From Eledone cirrhosa (taxonomy: Eukaryota): a DNA stretch of 64,000 nt. Positions 3,440-34,522 of this stretch are shown here, piece after piece. The stretch's first letter is position 1. Every line of letters begins with the position of its first letter. The stretch spans positions 111,786,001-111,850,000 of the forward strand of contig OZ024743.1 of the NCBI GenBank assembly GCA_964016885.1, in the 5' to 3' direction. The notes beneath the pieces were generated by a model. The model ran no database searches. It saw nothing but the letters and a program-made list of their open reading frames with translations, and was not told the DNA's origin. The translations under genes were made by a program, and so were the position numbers.

Positions 3440-3600
3440 TATATAAATATATATATAGATATACACACACACACACACACTCATATATATATATCCAGGT
3501 AGTCTAACGTAAAGTTACTGTAGATTCACCCAAATGAGCACTCGATATTTAGATTCACGTCTGTAGCGAGGTGTAGAGCTAAACAGAGTGTAAATATAAT

Positions 3601-3860
3601 AATACAAGAATGATTTGCTATGTCTTCGTAAAGTTTATTGATTGGTAACGCGCGTTTCGATAATGATCAGCTCAAAGTTCGATCTATATCGATCTGGCCC
3701 GACTCTGGAATCAAAAACTCGTCATCAACAGAGGTTCGACGAGCTTTTGATTCCAGAGTCGGGCCAGATCGATTCCGATCGAACCTTGAGCTGATCATCA
3801 GCAAAACGCGCGTCATCAATCAATAAACGTAATGAAGGCATGACAAATCGTCCTTGTATT
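3601..3860. repeat. Fold-back palindrome containing a decayed hammerhead-like motif (Penelope-like pLTR-derived)
   Basis: Arms ~3601-3724 and ~3738-3860 are reverse complements. They carry TGACGAG...(G/A)AAACGCGCGT(C/T). The flank 3495-3640 recurs inverted at 59465-59800. Confidence 0.8.
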
Positions 3861-6392: not shown

Positions 6393-6650
6393 TAATGTAT
6401 ATATATATATATATATATATAATGTATATATATATATATAATGTGTATATATATATATATATATAATGTGTATATGTATATATATATATACATACACAAA
6501 CATGTATATCTACTTACATATATTCATGGAATCTCTCACAATCGCACACGCACTCACACACACCCACGCACATATATATGTATACATACATATATATATG
6601 TATACATACGTTATATTAACAAATGGAAACTATATTTATAAAACCATATT

Positions 6651-6715
6651 TATTTCATTATACATATTTCAAGGACACCAAGTTAAATTACGGTGTGCTT
6701 TCATCAGATAAAATA
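6651..6715 (-). ncRNA. Type I hammerhead ribozyme motif, family A
   Basis: Minus strand: UAUUUUAU-CUGAUGA-[AAGCACACC...GGUGUCCUU]-GAAA-UAUGU-AUA^-AUGAAAUA. Stems I and II pair. It lies in a unit at ~6615-6935. Confidence 0.8.
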
Positions 6716-7064
6716 TAATATAGAGCAGTTTTATAAATAAATATTGACATACCCTTAAATAGTGCGACCATTTCTGTTGGAAGCTCCCGGATAGTCCAAA
6801 ATAAATATGGTTTTATAAATATAATTTCCATTTGTTTATATATCGTATTTTTACTCCAATAATTTGTTGAGTGCTTTATATCAGTTATAAAAATATTTGC
6901 TTGTTGTATCCCAACAATTTAAATAGAACTTCTACATATATGTATACATATATATATATGTATATATATATATATGTATATATGTATGTGTATGTATGTG
7001 TGCGTGTGTGTGTGCGTTTGTGACAGAGCGTGCGTATACGAATGTATGAATGTAGGAATCTATG

Positions 7065-7696: not shown

Positions 7697-7793
<97 letters not shown>

Positions 7794-7940
7794 AAAGTTA
7801 TATTTAAAATTGTTGGGTTACAACTAGTAAATATTTATAACTGATATAAAAGCACTCGACTGCCAGCTCAACCTCTTCAAATGCAAGTCGGTGTTGTTAC
7901 GGTATGTCGAATCTATTTATCTATAAAACTGTTTATATTG

Positions 7941-8006
7941 TATTTTGTCTGAGGAAGGCATAGCATATTGTTAATATGATATCCCCGAAATATATATAAT
8001 GAAATA
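7941..8006 (+). ncRNA. Type I hammerhead ribozyme motif, family A
   Basis: UAUUUUGU-CUGAGGA-[AGGCAUAGCAUAUU GUU AAUAUGAUAUCCCC]-GAAA-U AUAU-AUA^-AUGAAAUA. It lies in unit 7791-8048, which is flanked by (TA)n. Confidence 0.8.
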
Positions 8007-8726
8007 GATATGGTTTTATAAATATAGTTTCCATTTATTTAATATTGTATATATATATATATATGTACGTATGTATGTATATATATGAACACTTCCATCA
8101 CTCCCAATCTGAAGTACAGATGTTTCATTCTGCATAGAAGACACATTGAACGGTGGAAGGTGTACTCTTAGCTTATAAAGATTACATGAGATATCACTTT
8201 GTCCTCCAAAATCCTTATTGGACCAGATTAGTTATTGTTAACACACACGGTAATGCATAAATGGCGGCTTTTATTCATAGTGAAATCTTCATTTGTAATT
8301 ATTTAATTACATCACATCTGTCAACAATTAGATATACACATATACTGTAAAGCGTTTTGGATATACTCAGCTAGTATCAATCGCATACTGTAATATATCA
8401 ACACCTCGGTTCTCTGTCACAGACCAACTGATTTAATCAGCATTCGATGGATGCCAATCATATAGACTAAAGAAAAACAAAGAATGGTTGAGGTGGTAGA
8501 AGGCTGTGCCAGGTAGAAAACTAAGAGCAGAATGTGGCATATTGTGGTAACATTATTGATACAATATGTCGATTTCGTGTTATCATTTCCGTTATGATAG
8601 CTTCCTTGGAGAGTCTGCCGTTAATACTGCTCATAATATTGTTTACGTGCTTCAGTTTATTTCAGTATATTTCATAATTCATATACTTGCGCTATTGCTA
8701 ATTTCTCTATCTCATAATGATATACT

Positions 8727-28299: not shown

Positions 28300-28885
28300 A
28301 GAGCGAGAGAGAGAGAGAAAGAGAGAGAGGGAGAGAGAGATAGAGAGAGAGTGCACGCGTCCATACGTGGTTTCAGTATCACACCTGTGGCCACCTGAAC
28401 TCCAAATATCAAAAGTAATTTGTGGTGACGAATAAGTAATATTTGTCGACAGGTTTCTGTTTGTGTGGCTTCAACATCTTTCCAAAATAGTTGTAATAGA
28501 ATGAATCACGAATCAAATAGACGGAAACATATATTTATTGGCATGGAAATATAGAATGAATAATAAATAAACCACGCTTCTATGAAGTTCCTTCATTTGC
28601 AAGAAATATCAACGAAAGATATATAATTTGTCCTAAATTTGAAAGGGAGCAAAGCATTTAATATTATCTGTAGTCTTAGTTTTAAAAATATCTGACAAAT
28701 TATCAGGATAGACACGGCTGGGGCGCCTTTATTCTTGTCTCCAAAATATATGCTGAGGTGTGGTATATAACGTCTATGAAAACAACAGTTATATTTTGTA
28801 ATCTTATTCAATATATGGATTGGCATCTACAGCTACCTCAGTGTGAGTCACCACGAGAAACAGGACAACAACTCTTTAGATTCAT

Positions 28886-28958
<73 letters not shown>

Positions 28959-28961
<3 letters not shown>

Positions 28962-29361
28962 AAAGTTATATTTAAATTGTTGGGTTACAACTAGTAAATA
29001 TTTATAACTGATATAAAAGCACTCGACAAATATTTGGAGTATATTTACAATATTAAATAAATGGAAACTATATTTATAAAACCATATTTATTTCATTATA
29101 TATATTTCAGGGATATATTAACAATATGCTATGCCTTCCTCAGACAAAATACAATATAAACAGTTTTATAGATAAATAGATTCGACATACCTTCTCAAAT
29201 GCAAGTAGATGTTGTTACGGTATGTCGAATCTATTTATCTATAAAACTGTTTATATTGTATTTTGTCTGAGGAAGGCATAGCATATTGTTAATATGATAT
29301 CCCTGAAATATATATAATGAAATAAATATGGTTTTATAAATATAGTTTCCATTTATTTAAT

Positions 29362-29365
<4 letters not shown>
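28959..29365. mobile_element. Family-A fold-back unit with two divergently oriented hammerheads (29089-29151 minus, 29259-29324 plus)
   Basis: Arms ~29047-29191 and ~29218-29365 are near-perfect reverse complements. Each has CUGAGGA...GAAA UAUAU AUA with stem I UAUUUUGU/AUGAAAUA. (TA)n lies on both sides. Confidence 0.85.
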
Positions 29366-29420
<55 letters not shown>

Positions 29421-29435
29421 TTGAGTCTGTCCGTC

Positions 29436-29467
<32 letters not shown>

Positions 29468-30832
29468 CATGTGTGTGTGTATATGTGTGTATGTGTGTGT
29501 GTTTGAGTTTGTCTGTATGTGTGTGTGTGTGTGTGTGTGTGTTTTGGGGGATTTAAGGTTAAAATCATTGTAAAAGGTATGCCGCAGTTGAATATTTGTA
29601 GTTCAAACAGTGAGTCTTTCCAGAGACATGGATTCACTTTCAGTTATACTAACTACACCAGCAAAATGTACCAATAAAATTATTAAAGAATGAAACATAT
29701 ATAAATTAACAGTTTTGATAAAACGTTCCTGAAAATCACATTATAATCCGGCTCTTGCGTTTGTCGTTGATTCGCCGGTTTCGCACACATTTAGAAAACT
29801 TTAATTCAAAATCATTCCCTCCTTCATTATTTCTTGTATTCTAAAGTTTATGAATTCGTTATTACAGTAATATTTTTTGTTTAAATAGGTTCTATTCTCG
29901 TTTATAGCGGGTCAATCCTATTTTGCATCTATATGTTTTGAAATGCATAACTAGCATACTATTCTACTTCAAGAAGACGATTTTGTAGTCTTCTAATCTA
30001 ATGCAACCGTAGATTGCCAAAACCGGTAGGTAAATGTACTAAAGGGAATTGAGTTGGCTTCATTAAAATCAATATCGATTCAAAGACATAACTCGTGATA
30101 AAAGGCGACAACCTCTTACTATACGGAATTATGTCCGATACTCTAATCGAATTTTCGGCATTTTCCGGGTTTCCTGAAAGAAAGCCGTAAAACCTCACAA
30201 ATGTAAAATACAAACAACTACAGAAATAAAAATATGTTCCCACGAGATTTCATCTTAGGACGTGAAGGAATTAAACTTCACACATGAAGGTGTTTAGTCA
30301 GGTACTGTACCACTTCATTTAATCTAAGAGCACTTTAAAATATATAATATTGAAGTCTGTTGTCTACGTGACTTTCAAAGTTCAAATTAAACCATATGCC
30401 CTTTAAAACACGTGAGGATAGTAATGATTGACTTCCCATCGATAGTTAGTCTGCTTCATCATCGGTATCAAAATATCTTGGGAATCCCGCATAAACCATG
30501 GTTAACTTTGGTCTTTAATCACGCAAACAATAATTCCATATTTCTAAACAACTTCAAGAGAATGAAAACAGGCCCCGAATGAAAGACAATGTCCTCATTA
30601 ACCTCAGTAGAACTCAGAACATAATGAGCCGTATTGTCCGACGCGTTAAGCCTTCTGTTAATCCACAAGGATATTGGTAAAATAATGATTTCTGCACCAG
30701 GAAAAAAGGCAGGAAACATTGGGGTGGAAAATAAGTAAAAATAATTTAAATATATGACTGTTCCTTTATTTTGTTGTTCCCAGAAAGTGAATTTGATCTC
30801 AGAACAAAAGGAACCGGAACAATACTGGTATA

Positions 30833-31757
30833 TCTGTATATATATAAAATTATGTATGTGTGTGTGTCTGTGTGTCTGTGTATTACCTATAGGGGCCTAC
30901 ATCTTACGACCGATTTTCATGAACTTTTACAGGCTCATAGATTATTCATCAGGGAGTGTTTTCTATGTATCAGCATATCGTTTTTTTTTATTCTGGGGTC
31001 ATTCTGCAGATGAAAATCGATAGGGGGTGACCTTTTTTTAGGTATCGAAAAATAAGATTTTTTGGCTCTAGCTCCCACATTTTGCCACCGATTTCGTTCA
31101 AATGTTAAAGCAAAATAGAATTTATCATTGCACATCCTGTAATGGCTTTATATTTTGCATTTTTTGTTCATGAACGGCGTGGCGGCCGCTTAAATATTCG
31201 AAAATACCACCTTTTCGGCTCTAGCTCCCACATTTTTCAACCGATATCGTTCAAATTCGAAACTTCGGCTCTACCTCACACATAAATCAATTTATTTGGT
31301 TCAACTTTTATACTACGAGAGAATATATCATTAGCTCCCACATTTTTCAACCGATTTCGTTCAAAGTCGAAACTACGGCTCCACCTCACACATAAATAAA
31401 TTTATTTGGTTCAACTTTTATACTACGATAGAACCTATCATTGCACATCTTATAGATTGTCAAAGGTAAAGCGATGGCCACTGACGTCGTCTGAGCCTTT
31501 AGTTGTGTATTTGAGAATTCATCGGTTTCCAATCAAGTAGCGTGAGGAAATTTGGCTTAGTGTTAGAGGTCATTACCTCCCTCCCCCAGCATGCCCCTTC
31601 GTCAGTCACTCTCGTTTCTCAGTGATAGAGGTCATCATCACCCGCCCCCGCATGGTCTGTGTGTAGCCATAGATGTGTCATCGAGAAGCAGATCAACACC
31701 TTTTCATCAGAGCAGATATTATTTTACCTACCCAGGCAACGCTGGGTCCTGCTGCTA

Positions 31758-32085: not shown

Positions 32086-32162
32086 GTGTATATATATATA
32101 TACAATATGTGTGTATATATATATATATATATGAGATTAATATATATATATCAGATTAATCA

Positions 32163-32755
32163 TCTCATTTACACAGACGAGAAAAGTATATATTCTCGGC
32201 TGCATTCTAGTCCAGCAGTCGCAAGCCGTGGGAGGAACCGTCCTAACGAAGGCTAGTTAAGCCTGAAATGCATAGACGGTTGTCCCCCTTGCTCCTGCTG
32301 GACATCACCAGAGGGCGTTAGCCCGTCGGTGTTTGCATAGCTACGGCTTCCTAAAATCGTATTTTCTTGGGGATACGAAATATTTATACATATTGTATCA
32401 AGCTATGCTTGAAGCGAAATCCTATTTCTCTTTTATTATAAGTTGAGCCAACTTATAATACTTCATATGCAAATGAGAATAATCACCTCATTTACACATA
32501 CGAGAAATGTATATATTCTCGGTGTCTTCTAGTCCAGCAGTCGCAAGCGGTAGGAGGGACCGTCCTGAGGAAAGGCCAGTTAAGCCTGAAATGCGTAGAC
32601 TGTTGTCCCACTTCCTTCAGCTGAACATCACCAGAGGGCGTTAGCCACCCGGTGTTTGCATAGCTACGGTTTCCTAAAACTGTATTTCCTTGGAGATACG
32701 AAATATTTATACATATTGTATAAAACTATGCTTGAAGCGAAATCCTATTTCTTTT
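32163..32755 (+). repeat. Tandem ~322-bp dimer, each unit with a minimal hammerhead (family D; 32238-32279 and 32560-32602)
   Basis: Unit 1: CCGUC-CUAACGA-AGGC..GCCU-GAAA-UGCA-UA-GACGG. Unit 2: CCGUC-CUGAGGA-AAGGC..GCCU-GAAA-UGCG-UA-GACUG. An inverted copy of the 5' part lies at 31808-31892. Confidence 0.8.
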
Positions 32756-32764
32756 ATATATATT

Positions 32765-33549: not shown

Positions 33550-33745
33550 ATTTTATCTGATAAAAGCACACTATAATTTAACTTGGTGTCCTTGAAATGT
33601 GTATAATGAAATAAATATGGTTTTATAAATATGGTTTCCATTTGTTAATATATCGTATTTTTAGTCCAATAATTTGTTGAGTGCTTTATATCAGTTATAA
33701 AAATATTTGGTTGTTGTATCCCAACAATTTAGATAGAACTTCTAC
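33550..33745 (+). mobile_element. Family-A unit with mutated HHR core (CUGAUAA)
   Basis: Matches 6651-6715 (reverse complement) joined to 6805-6935. It ends in (TA)n. Confidence 0.8.
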
Positions 33746-34211: not shown

Positions 34212-34392
34212 TATGCAAATGTTCTATTTAAAATTGTTGGGATACAACAAGTAAATATTTTATAACTTATATAAAGCACTCGACAAGTTTTTGGAGTAGA
34301 TATACGATATTAAATATCCAGACAGCTTCCATAAATAATGGTTGCATCTAATAGGGTACGTCACCATTATTTATAAAACTGTTTATATATTG

Positions 34393-34457
34393 TATTTTGT
34401 CTGATGAAGGCATAACATATTTTAATTTGGTATCCCTGAAATATGTATAATGAAATA
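34393..34457 (+). ncRNA. Type I hammerhead motif, family A (unit ~34213-34500)
   Basis: UAUUUUGU-CUGAUGA-[AGGCAUAAC...GGUAUCCCU]-GAAA-UAUGU-AUA^-AUGAAAUA. Confidence 0.75.
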
Positions 34458-34522
34458 AATATGGTTTTATAAATATAGTTTCCATTTATTTAATATCGCA
34501 TATAAATATATATATATATGTA

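What the first reader, a model, noticed from the sequence alone, without database searches (positions are those of the whole stretch)
28959..29365. Family A: five related HHR units, all anchored in (TA)n, sharing a fold-back design
Seen: units at 6615-6935, 7791-8048, 28959-29365, 33550-33745 and 34213-34500. Four combine the terminal segment with an oppositely oriented HHR arm. The 7791 unit is nearly identical to the 28959 unit, including loop sequence CAAATGCAAGT..TGTTGTTACGGTATG, but lacks the left arm. All share the same end (..GAAAGTT(A/C)TAT(T/C)TAAA) fused to (TA)n. Stem II differs between copies but still pairs (GCAUAGCAUAUU/AAUAUGAUAU vs ACACC/GGUGU). Inference: the element targets or seeds TA microsatellites, and the inversion is either inherited or recurs during reverse transcription.
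Basis: partly seen in the sequence, partly recalled or inferred. Interest (0 to 1): 0.7.

Follow-up and report, generated by a model that had tools for sequence, protein, structure and literature searches.

The report
Hydra-clade Penelope retrotransposon inverted stubs
These five hammerhead-bearing repeats are cut-short ends of an abundant Penelope-like jumping gene that sits in TA repeats, four of them joined back to back in a known layout; across the genome the two halves nearly always end at two different fixed points, likely because both ends of the cut DNA start copying the element's RNA.

Summary
The five units are real. They are not a stand-alone ribozyme element. They are 5'-truncated ends (pseudo-LTRs with a minimal type I hammerhead) of three subfamilies of a Penelope-like retrotransposon. 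Full-length copies in the same genome encode a 737-aa RT plus GIY-YIG-type protein with the Hydra-clade motifs. (TA)n targeting and inverted pLTRs with a one-sided tail are published for this group. The inversion recurs at each insertion, because junctions differ between loci. TA arrays look split rather than seeded. What goes beyond the papers read is quantitative. Head-to-head insertions pair one long and one short fixed 3' end, 88 nt apart (62 of 65; 34 of 34 in sister subfamilies). Both arms come from one source (0.7% versus 4.6% divergence). In 29 of 59 insertions neither arm lies within the other, which excludes simple fold-back there. Each end lies just before a copy of the same small hairpin motif, and short arms often stop at one initiator-like site. 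The likely mechanism is priming from both ends of a break. The scan already reported this pattern on other DNA of this genome. Verdict: new family of a known kind, with modest mechanistic interest.

The parts
28960..29191 (-). Unit 3, long-end arm: pLTR end with hammerhead plus 88-nt tail, ending at the long (L) site
   Evidence: 97.9% to reference unit positions 3624-3858
29189..29365 (+). Unit 3, short-end arm: pLTR end with hammerhead, ending at the short (S) site; 3-nt overlap with the other arm at 29189-29191
   Evidence: 96.8% to reference 3594-3778; S end at 29365
29097..29143 (-). Minimal type I hammerhead core, stems II and III; predicted cut after 29097
29267..29316 (+). Minimal type I hammerhead core, stems II and III; predicted cut after 29316
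29022..29039 (-). Small hairpin motif just after the S site (a second copy follows the L site in full-length elements)
28888..28959 (.). (TA)36 target array, left part
29366..29404 (.). (TA)19.5 target array, right part
7792..7860 (-). Unit 2, long-end arm cut to the last 69 nt of the tail
   Evidence: 98.6% to reference 3791-3858
7859..8047 (+). Unit 2, short-end arm starting exactly at the initiator-like ACT site; hammerhead core 7949-7998
6613..6795 (-). Unit 1 (sister subfamily), short-end arm starting at the ACT site; hammerhead core 6707-6659
6799..6935 (+). Unit 1, long-end arm starting just past the hammerhead cut site
33550..33745 (+). Unit 4 (same subfamily as unit 1), single long-end arm; hammerhead core with G8 changed to A
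34215..34316 (-). Unit 5 (third subfamily), long-end arm, tail only
34315..34498 (+). Unit 5, short-end arm starting 2 nt after the ACT site; hammerhead core 34401-34449

Best explanation
The units are 5'-truncated ends of a Hydra-clade Penelope-like retrotransposon, four of them head-to-head pairs, likely made when the element's endonuclease cut a pre-existing (TA)n array and both broken DNA ends primed reverse transcription on RNA from one source copy. Shown: the parent element (3858-nt unit: ORF, 1.3-kb 3' UTR, pLTR with hammerhead); two fixed 3' ends 88 nt apart; one of each per inverted insertion; the same source for both arms; variable 5' junctions; TA on both sides. Inferred: one DNA end starts at the long site and the other at the short site. 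Each site lies just before a short UA-rich stretch and a copy of the same hairpin, which probably position the enzyme. The two cDNAs stop early and are joined 5'-end to 5'-end through short microhomology or inserted bases. Many stubs, including three arms in this window, stop at an initiator-like ACT site about 100 nt upstream of the hammerhead, probably the RNA's 5' end. The stubs are probably dead; self-cleavage is untested. About 95% for the identity, about 60% for the two-ended priming scheme.
For: Parent: L032 shows tail arm, inverted, then an ORF fragment, 3' UTR, pLTR and TA. All 150 scored genome hits to that ORF fragment are 99-100% identical. Full-length 737-aa frames follow the pLTR tail directly. 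Hydra motifs are present (against Craig 2021 section 11). Sister subfamilies lie beside frames 69-83% identical. End rule: of 74 head-to-head junctions in 100 loci, 62 are L+S, 2 L+L, 1 S+S and 9 unscorable (p 2.5e-15 for 62 of 65 against 0.5). In sister subfamilies 34 of 45 are L+S, none L+L or S+S, 11 unscorable. Same source: 0.67% between arms versus 4.6% between insertions in 55 of 59 insertions with enough overlap. Not fold-back: in 29 of 59 neither arm lies within the other. Target: 159 of 171 outer ends in TA versus 8.1% of window positions. Locus-specific interruptions are shared across the insertion in direct orientation (0.36) more than inverted (0.15) or between loci (0.17), 17 versus 3 among 24 informative of 62. 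One paralogous empty site holds a TA array. Junction microhomology of 2 nt or more occurs in 18 of 29 insert-free junctions versus 20% expected. Hairpin copy after L is the best match to the one after S in the whole unit, 4 of 5000 shuffles as good. Stop hotspot: 42 of 98 stub arms that reach +6 stop within 8 nt at ACT. In vitro precedent: the anole PLE protein cuts and extends both strands and starts at two internal sites that define the tail (PMC11167929, parts 1-2 of 4 read).
Against: No biochemistry or RNA data for this family. No empty allele of the window's site was seen. Three of 65 pairs break the end rule. Three of 24 flank pairs are more alike inverted than direct, and only one empty paralogous site was found. 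The microhomology excess is inflated by a tolerant extension (a stricter pass kept 19 of 59 junctions: 10 with inserts, 5 of 9 with 2 nt or more); 18 of 47 resolved junctions carry inserted bases. Arm similarity could be helped by gene conversion. The ACT hotspot is nearly absent in ORF-selected insertions (1 of 164 arms). The stub queries began just downstream of ACT, so the hotspot may be a wider zone. A cap-derived extra G is not significant (3 of 7, p 0.15). The two hairpins are weak (-4 to -5.6 kcal/mol; the region's z-score is -0.66). In 46 of 59 long insertions both arms run upstream of ACT, so one linear RNA starting there cannot supply both without being copied twice. Tandem arms longer than one unit are unexplained by it. 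Several stub pairs have near-perfect palindromic junctions, as self-priming would give.
Confidence: 0.7

Rival explanations
1. Self-priming or snap-back: one cDNA (or an antisense RNA) folds back on itself and is copied, giving the inverted arm; the tail arises when the endonuclease resolves the intermediate.
For: Proposed for rotifer PLEs from palindromic junctions (PMC3846280, passages); tail ascribed to endonuclease resolution (PMC8557442, passages). Arms share a source. Near-perfect palindromic junctions occur in stubs such as L002, L003, L021 and L222. In 29 of 59 insertions the short arm lies within the long arm.
Against: In 29 of 59 neither arm contains the other. Units 1, 2 and 5 of this window are of that kind: the short arm reaches further upstream, the long arm alone has the tail. 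Palindromic junctions are also expected if both arms run off at the same ACT site.
Confidence: 0.12
2. Circular template: the hammerheads in the two pLTRs cut out a unit-length RNA that is ligated into a circle, which is primed at L and S from both DNA ends. This is a variant of the best reading.
For: Arms up to 1.45 units long. No arm stops at the predicted cut site (0 of 148). Cores are intact in 160 of 171 young copies. Both arms run upstream of ACT in 46 of 59 long insertions. Retrozymes are thought to use circles (bioRxiv 10.64898/2026.07.22.740005, part 1 of 5 read).
Against: Uncleaved tandem or read-through transcripts predict the same. Hammerhead cleavage was not needed in vitro for the anole PLE. 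Minimal PLE hammerheads cleave poorly (PMC4209133, passages). The ACT stop hotspot implies linear RNAs for stubs.
Confidence: 0.25
3. The element seeds its own TA arrays, by telomerase-like slippage or by copying a (UA)n tail of its RNA.
For: PLE RTs are sister to telomerase. Nearly every end has TA. Three of 24 flank pairs are more alike in inverted orientation.
Against: Locus-specific interruptions continue across the insertion in direct orientation in 17 of 24. One paralogous empty site has a TA array. Hydra elements are listed as preferring (TA)n. Later expansion of the arrays is not excluded.
Confidence: 0.08
4. A stand-alone non-autonomous fold-back element or retrozyme with an inherited inversion, or local segmental duplications.
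For: The five units are short, non-coding and hammerhead-bearing. pLTR depth in raw reads is about a hundred times that of the ORF (RAD-seq, biased).
Against: Junction positions differ at nearly every locus. The same pLTR is contiguous with the ORF. The units are not tandem monomers. Unique flanks do not align.
Confidence: 0.03

Closest known systems
Hydra clade of C-terminal EN+ Penelope-like elements, e.g. Hydra-1_Obim of Octopus bimaculoides and Penelope-13_HM (Craig et al. 2021, PMC8557442; passages, section 11 whole, supplement passages and part 2 of 59 read)
   Same: RT then C-terminal GIY-YIG-type domain; RWR for RWK, DKT, CxCx5C linker, no CCHH, CxxC and CxH; sense-strand hammerhead near the 3' end; (TA)n insertion. 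Penelope-13_HM is listed with a 5'-truncated inverted copy.
   Different: A different family: the Hydra-1_Obim hammerhead and protein differ by eye (no computed alignment). The unit is 3858 nt with a 1.3-kb 3' UTR, against generally under 3 kb. The tail is 88 nt, against 30-40 bp described for PLEs.
PAc, Poseidon PLE of Anolis carolinensis (Frangieh et al. 2024, PMC11167929; parts 1-2 of 4 read)
   Same: Two internal RT start sites downstream of the hammerhead define the tail; AT-rich target; both strands cut and extended; predicted dimer.
   Different: PAc starts inside the ORF at sites not homologous to the target. Here both sites are in the 5' UTR (the ATG is 49 nt past L), each precedes a UA-like stretch and a repeated hairpin, and the sites are used one each per insertion, which the parts read do not report.
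[quoted passage not shown]
   Same: Type I core, palindromic helix III without a real loop, location in the pLTR, variable stem II.
   Different: Activity untested here. Arms in a fold-back pair face away from each other and would pair with each other's complement instead of forming the tandem dimer.
Twin priming of LINE-1 5' inversions
   Same: Both ends of the target break prime cDNA, which are joined head-to-head with microhomology.
   Different: In LINE-1 the second priming site is variable and the arms do not overlap. Here both sites are fixed and both arms repeat the same pLTR.
Metazoan non-LTR retrozymes (bioRxiv 10.64898/2026.07.22.740005, part 1 of 5 read; PMC7229834, search listing only)
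   Same: Short non-coding repeats with type I hammerheads linked to PLEs.
   Different: The units here are not tandem monomers and are contiguous with an autonomous ORF in longer copies.

Membership tests
EN+ Penelope-like elements | Single ORF with RT and GIY-YIG endonuclease | tested here: met
   737-aa frame with RDD and IVY...YVG. 156 homologs at E<=1e-20, many annotated PF26215 and one PF00078. Direct Pfam scans of the query gave 0 families, so domain assignment rests on motifs and on by-eye match to published Hydra proteins.
EN+ Penelope-like elements | Partial tandems forming pLTRs, inverted 5'-truncated copy, tail at one end | tested here: met
EN+ Penelope-like elements | Hammerhead motif in the pLTR | tested here: met
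   Core intact in 160 of 171 young copies; pairing counts
Hydra clade | RWK motif, DKT instead of DKG | tested here: met
   RWR at 37 (conservative variant), DKT at 118
Hydra clade | CxCX5C linker; CCHH absent; CxxC and CxH around the conserved E and N | tested here: met
   CxCx5C at 596; one cysteine only between IVY 615 and YVG 630; CxxC at 694, CxH at 721
Hydra clade | Insertion into (TA)n | tested here: met
   159 of 171 ends
Hydra clade | Generally short (under 3 kb) | tested here: not met
   Unit 3858 nt owing to a long 3' UTR; a tendency in the paper, not a diagnostic motif
Hydra clade | Placement in the Hydra clade on an RT tree | not tested
   Published reference proteins were read in the supplement but were not available as tool inputs
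Naiad/Chlamys PLEs | N-terminal endonuclease, no canonical hammerhead | tested here: not met
   Endonuclease is C-terminal and a canonical core is present
Neptune/Nematis/Poseidon PLEs | CCHH motif inside the GIY-YIG core | tested here: not met
Non-LTR retrozymes | Non-coding tandem monomers, each with a type I hammerhead | tested here: not met
   No such tandem in the five units; pLTR contiguous with an ORF
Hammerhead ribozymes | Self-cleavage | not testable with these tools
   Fold only; the free fold of single arms does not favour the hammerhead strongly (z -0.37 to -2.78)

The most novel reading that the evidence does not exclude
Hydra-clade PLEs carry a duplicated RNA hairpin that marks two start sites. 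An asymmetric enzyme dimer uses one site for each end of a break in (TA)n, pairing the nicked TA strand with a UA-rich stretch before each hairpin. This single coupled reaction would explain the inverted pLTR, the one-sided tail and the mass of hammerhead stubs that run off at the transcript's 5' end, and replaces self-priming as the source of PLE inverted repeats.
Probability: 0.4. Interest if true: 0.62.

Novelty: new member of a known kind. Interest (0 to 1): 0.3.

Why it matters
As an element it is ordinary: one more Hydra-clade family with published habits. Its use is as a natural dataset. How PLEs make tandem and inverted ends is named as an open question in Craig et al. 2021 (passage). 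This young family has many near-identical intact frames and gives three sharp, testable rules: one long and one short end per insertion, both arms from one source, and a repeated hairpin behind each start site. An in vitro assay of the kind already published for the anole element could test them directly. For annotation, thousands of short hammerhead fold-backs in such genomes should be read as PLE stubs, not as regulatory RNAs.

Tried and rejected
Rfam: no hit at gathering score; miRNA-like hits reflect the long palindrome and are all below threshold. Pfam on the ORF: 0 families. Segmental duplication rejected: among nine flanks the only alignments were an overlap of two of my own flank windows and one 26-bp match. 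Empty allele sought by laying four runs on window 28300-30200: contigs break at the TA arrays and no joint across the insertion was listed. Run search: no RNA holder listed, so expression and cleavage were not examined. Linear hammerhead-cut RNA as template: 0 of 148 arm starts within 4 nt of the cut site. Cap-derived G: not significant. A-to-G bias between arms: none (20 A/G of 82 differences). Negative correlation of arm lengths set aside as an artefact of selecting loci by the ORF. Divergence among the three pLTRs of tandem insertions (about 1%) does not separate circle from tandem source. Primer-template pairing at L is suggestive only. 13 of 16 internal copies start ATG after L; 10 of 70 outer L ends start ATG, versus 1 of 69 S ends starting TATG (p about 0.009, computed on 10/71 and 1/68 through a miscount of one). 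Literature: 'Penelope, pLTR, tail, twin priming' gave 0 papers. Searches listed none that I saw stating the one-long-one-short count or the repeated hairpin. Subscription papers, and the supplements of papers other than PMC8557442, were not seen. A search of earlier notes by sequence gave only an unrelated hit.

Full report
Observation. A motif scan finds type I hammerhead cores at +7949, +29267, +33557, +34401, -29143 and -6707. Stem III is the short palindrome typical of minimal PLE hammerheads (PMC4209133, passages). Over six arms 93% of cells pair, with two double-sided changes in stem II; these come from only three lineages. The 33557 core has lost G8. Nine of nine 3' ends run into TA, against 8.1% of window positions. 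Unique flanks do not align with one another. Rfam has no match at threshold.

Finding the parent. The window lies in a 3.0-Gb genome. The 28959 arm gave 691 candidates, 40 scored, at 94-100% identity on many contigs. One copy, L032, reads: TA, inverted arm with tail, a reading-frame fragment, 1.3 kb of UTR, the same hammerhead end, TA. That fragment found 150 scored places, all 99-100% identical. I fetched 100 loci around these hits: 20 picked for long frames or paired hits and 80 taken largely in list order. Full copies have the layout pLTR, tail, 737-aa ORF, 3' UTR, pLTR; the unit is 3858 nt. The protein has RWR, DKT, RDD, CxCx5C, a GIY-YIG-type core without CCHH, then CxxC and CxH. These are the diagnostics of the Hydra clade in Craig et al. 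2021 (section 11 read whole). Its supplement lists Hydra-1_Obim from Octopus bimaculoides and (TA)n preference for nearly all members. Pfam itself gave no hit. The best named homolog is an Argonauta protein at 39%. Units 2 and 3 belong to this young subfamily. Units 1 and 4, and unit 5, belong to two sister subfamilies whose loci include frames 69-83% identical.

Architecture. Arms end at one of two fixed sites: S, 49 nt after the predicted hammerhead cut, and L, 88 nt further on (BLAST places S at -80 because it absorbs TA-like bases). Raw reads from two runs show the S end followed by TA in over 5000 reads each, so it is no assembly artefact. Of 74 head-to-head junctions in the 100 loci, 62 pair L with S, 2 are L+L, 1 is S+S and 9 cannot be scored; three of the 62 are stubs of other subfamilies. 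In the 60 sister-subfamily loci, which include the window's units 1, 2 and 5, 34 of 45 are L+S and 11 unscorable. All four paired units in the window obey the rule. The 5' junctions differ from locus to locus, so the inversion recurs and is not inherited. An inverted 5'-truncated copy with a tail often at one end only is the published PLE layout (PMC3846280 passages).

How the arms were made. The two arms of one insertion differ by 0.67% against 4.6% between insertions (55 of 59 insertions), so they come from one source, though conversion could add to this. The long arm reaches further in 29 and the short arm in 30. In 29 of 59 neither arm lies within the other. There a fold-back copy of one cDNA cannot give both, and the self-priming model of Arkhipova et al. 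2013 cannot be the general route. Junctions show either short microhomology or inserted bases. A tolerant pass resolved 47 of 62 junctions: 18 had inserts, and 18 of the 29 insert-free ones had 2 nt or more against 20% expected. A strict pass kept 19 of 59 and gave 5 of 9. This fits two cDNAs primed from the two ends of a break and joined at their 3' ends, like LINE-1 twin priming (recalled). The anole PLE protein cuts and extends both strands and starts at two internal sites that define the tail.

What marks the sites. Following a lead from earlier scan notes, I tested for a repeated signal. The 45 nt after L are the best match in the whole unit to the 45 nt after S, with 4 of 5000 shuffles as good. 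Both fold into a similar weak hairpin 8-10 nt past the end, and the motif is kept in all three subfamilies after S and in two after L. Each site is followed directly by a UA-like stretch; only about 4% of positions in the region match TA at 7 of 8. The majority variant after L carries a G. The perfect TA tract in stem III is not used as an end, so pairing alone does not pick the site. A second lead from the notes was run-off at the RNA start. In stub-selected loci 15 of 28, 13 of 33 and 14 of 37 arms that reach +6 stop within 8 nt at a conserved initiator-like ACT, about 100 nt upstream of the hammerhead. Of the 56 that pass, 15 stop in the next 40 nt. The short arms of units 1, 2 and 5 start there. 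In ORF-selected insertions the hotspot is nearly absent (1 of 164), and both arms run upstream of it in 46 of 59. So stubs probably come from priming near the 5' end of a pLTR-started RNA, while long insertions need the 3' pLTR copied twice, two RNAs from one source, or a circle. An internal promoter is reported for Drosophila Penelope (PMC2377424, abstract only). No arm starts at the hammerhead cut (0 of 148).

Target or seed. 159 of 171 outer ends lie in TA. Where both flanks carry interruptions (24 of 62), they match across the insertion in direct orientation (0.36) more than inverted (0.15) or between loci (0.17); 17 favour direct and 3 inverted. One paralogous repeat without the element has a TA array at the matching place. 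No empty allele of the window's site could be seen. Targeting of existing arrays is the better reading and agrees with the published clade preference.

Verdict. The element is a new family of a known clade with a known layout. The strict end rule, the non-nested arms and the repeated hairpin were not found in print. Most subscription papers and most supplements were not visible. Earlier scan notes on other DNA of this genome already report the end rule, the twin hairpins and run-off. I reached the identity and the end rule before reading them, and took the hairpin and run-off tests from them; they are not independent support. Interest 0.3; the bold mechanistic reading would deserve about 0.6 if shown in vitro.

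Noticed in passing
window 60793-60745, - strand: A second, unrelated type I hammerhead with a strong stem II and palindromic stem III, followed about 70 nt later by a TA run; probably the end of another PLE family.
   Followed up: no
window 60502-60433, - strand: A third hammerhead-like core with a long stem II insert, 290 nt from the previous one.
   Followed up: no
window 32153-32759 and 31222-31442: Two-copy tandem repeats of 323 and 110 bp; the first is bounded by TA arrays.
   Followed up: no
window 56210-58619: A 2.4-kb degenerate TA array.
   Followed up: no
L031 3979-5364, - strand: [quoted passage not shown]
   Followed up: no
   Followed up: no
L070, L093, L097 flanks: The simple-repeat flanks on the two sides are more alike as mirror images than in direct orientation, unlike most loci; unexplained.
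   Followed up: partly
L078 and L111: Exceptions to the end rule: L078 has two long ends with two near-full arms; L111 has two short ends, one arm being a rearranged tandem.
   Followed up: partly
L082, L112, L114, L117, L131, L144 junctions: Extra 70-240-nt pieces of the ORF are patched into the head-to-head junction, suggesting template switches before joining.
   Followed up: no
L069:4370-6625 laid on runs X4 and X7: Related frames occur in runs labelled as other organisms, so the family extends beyond this genome.
   Followed up: partly
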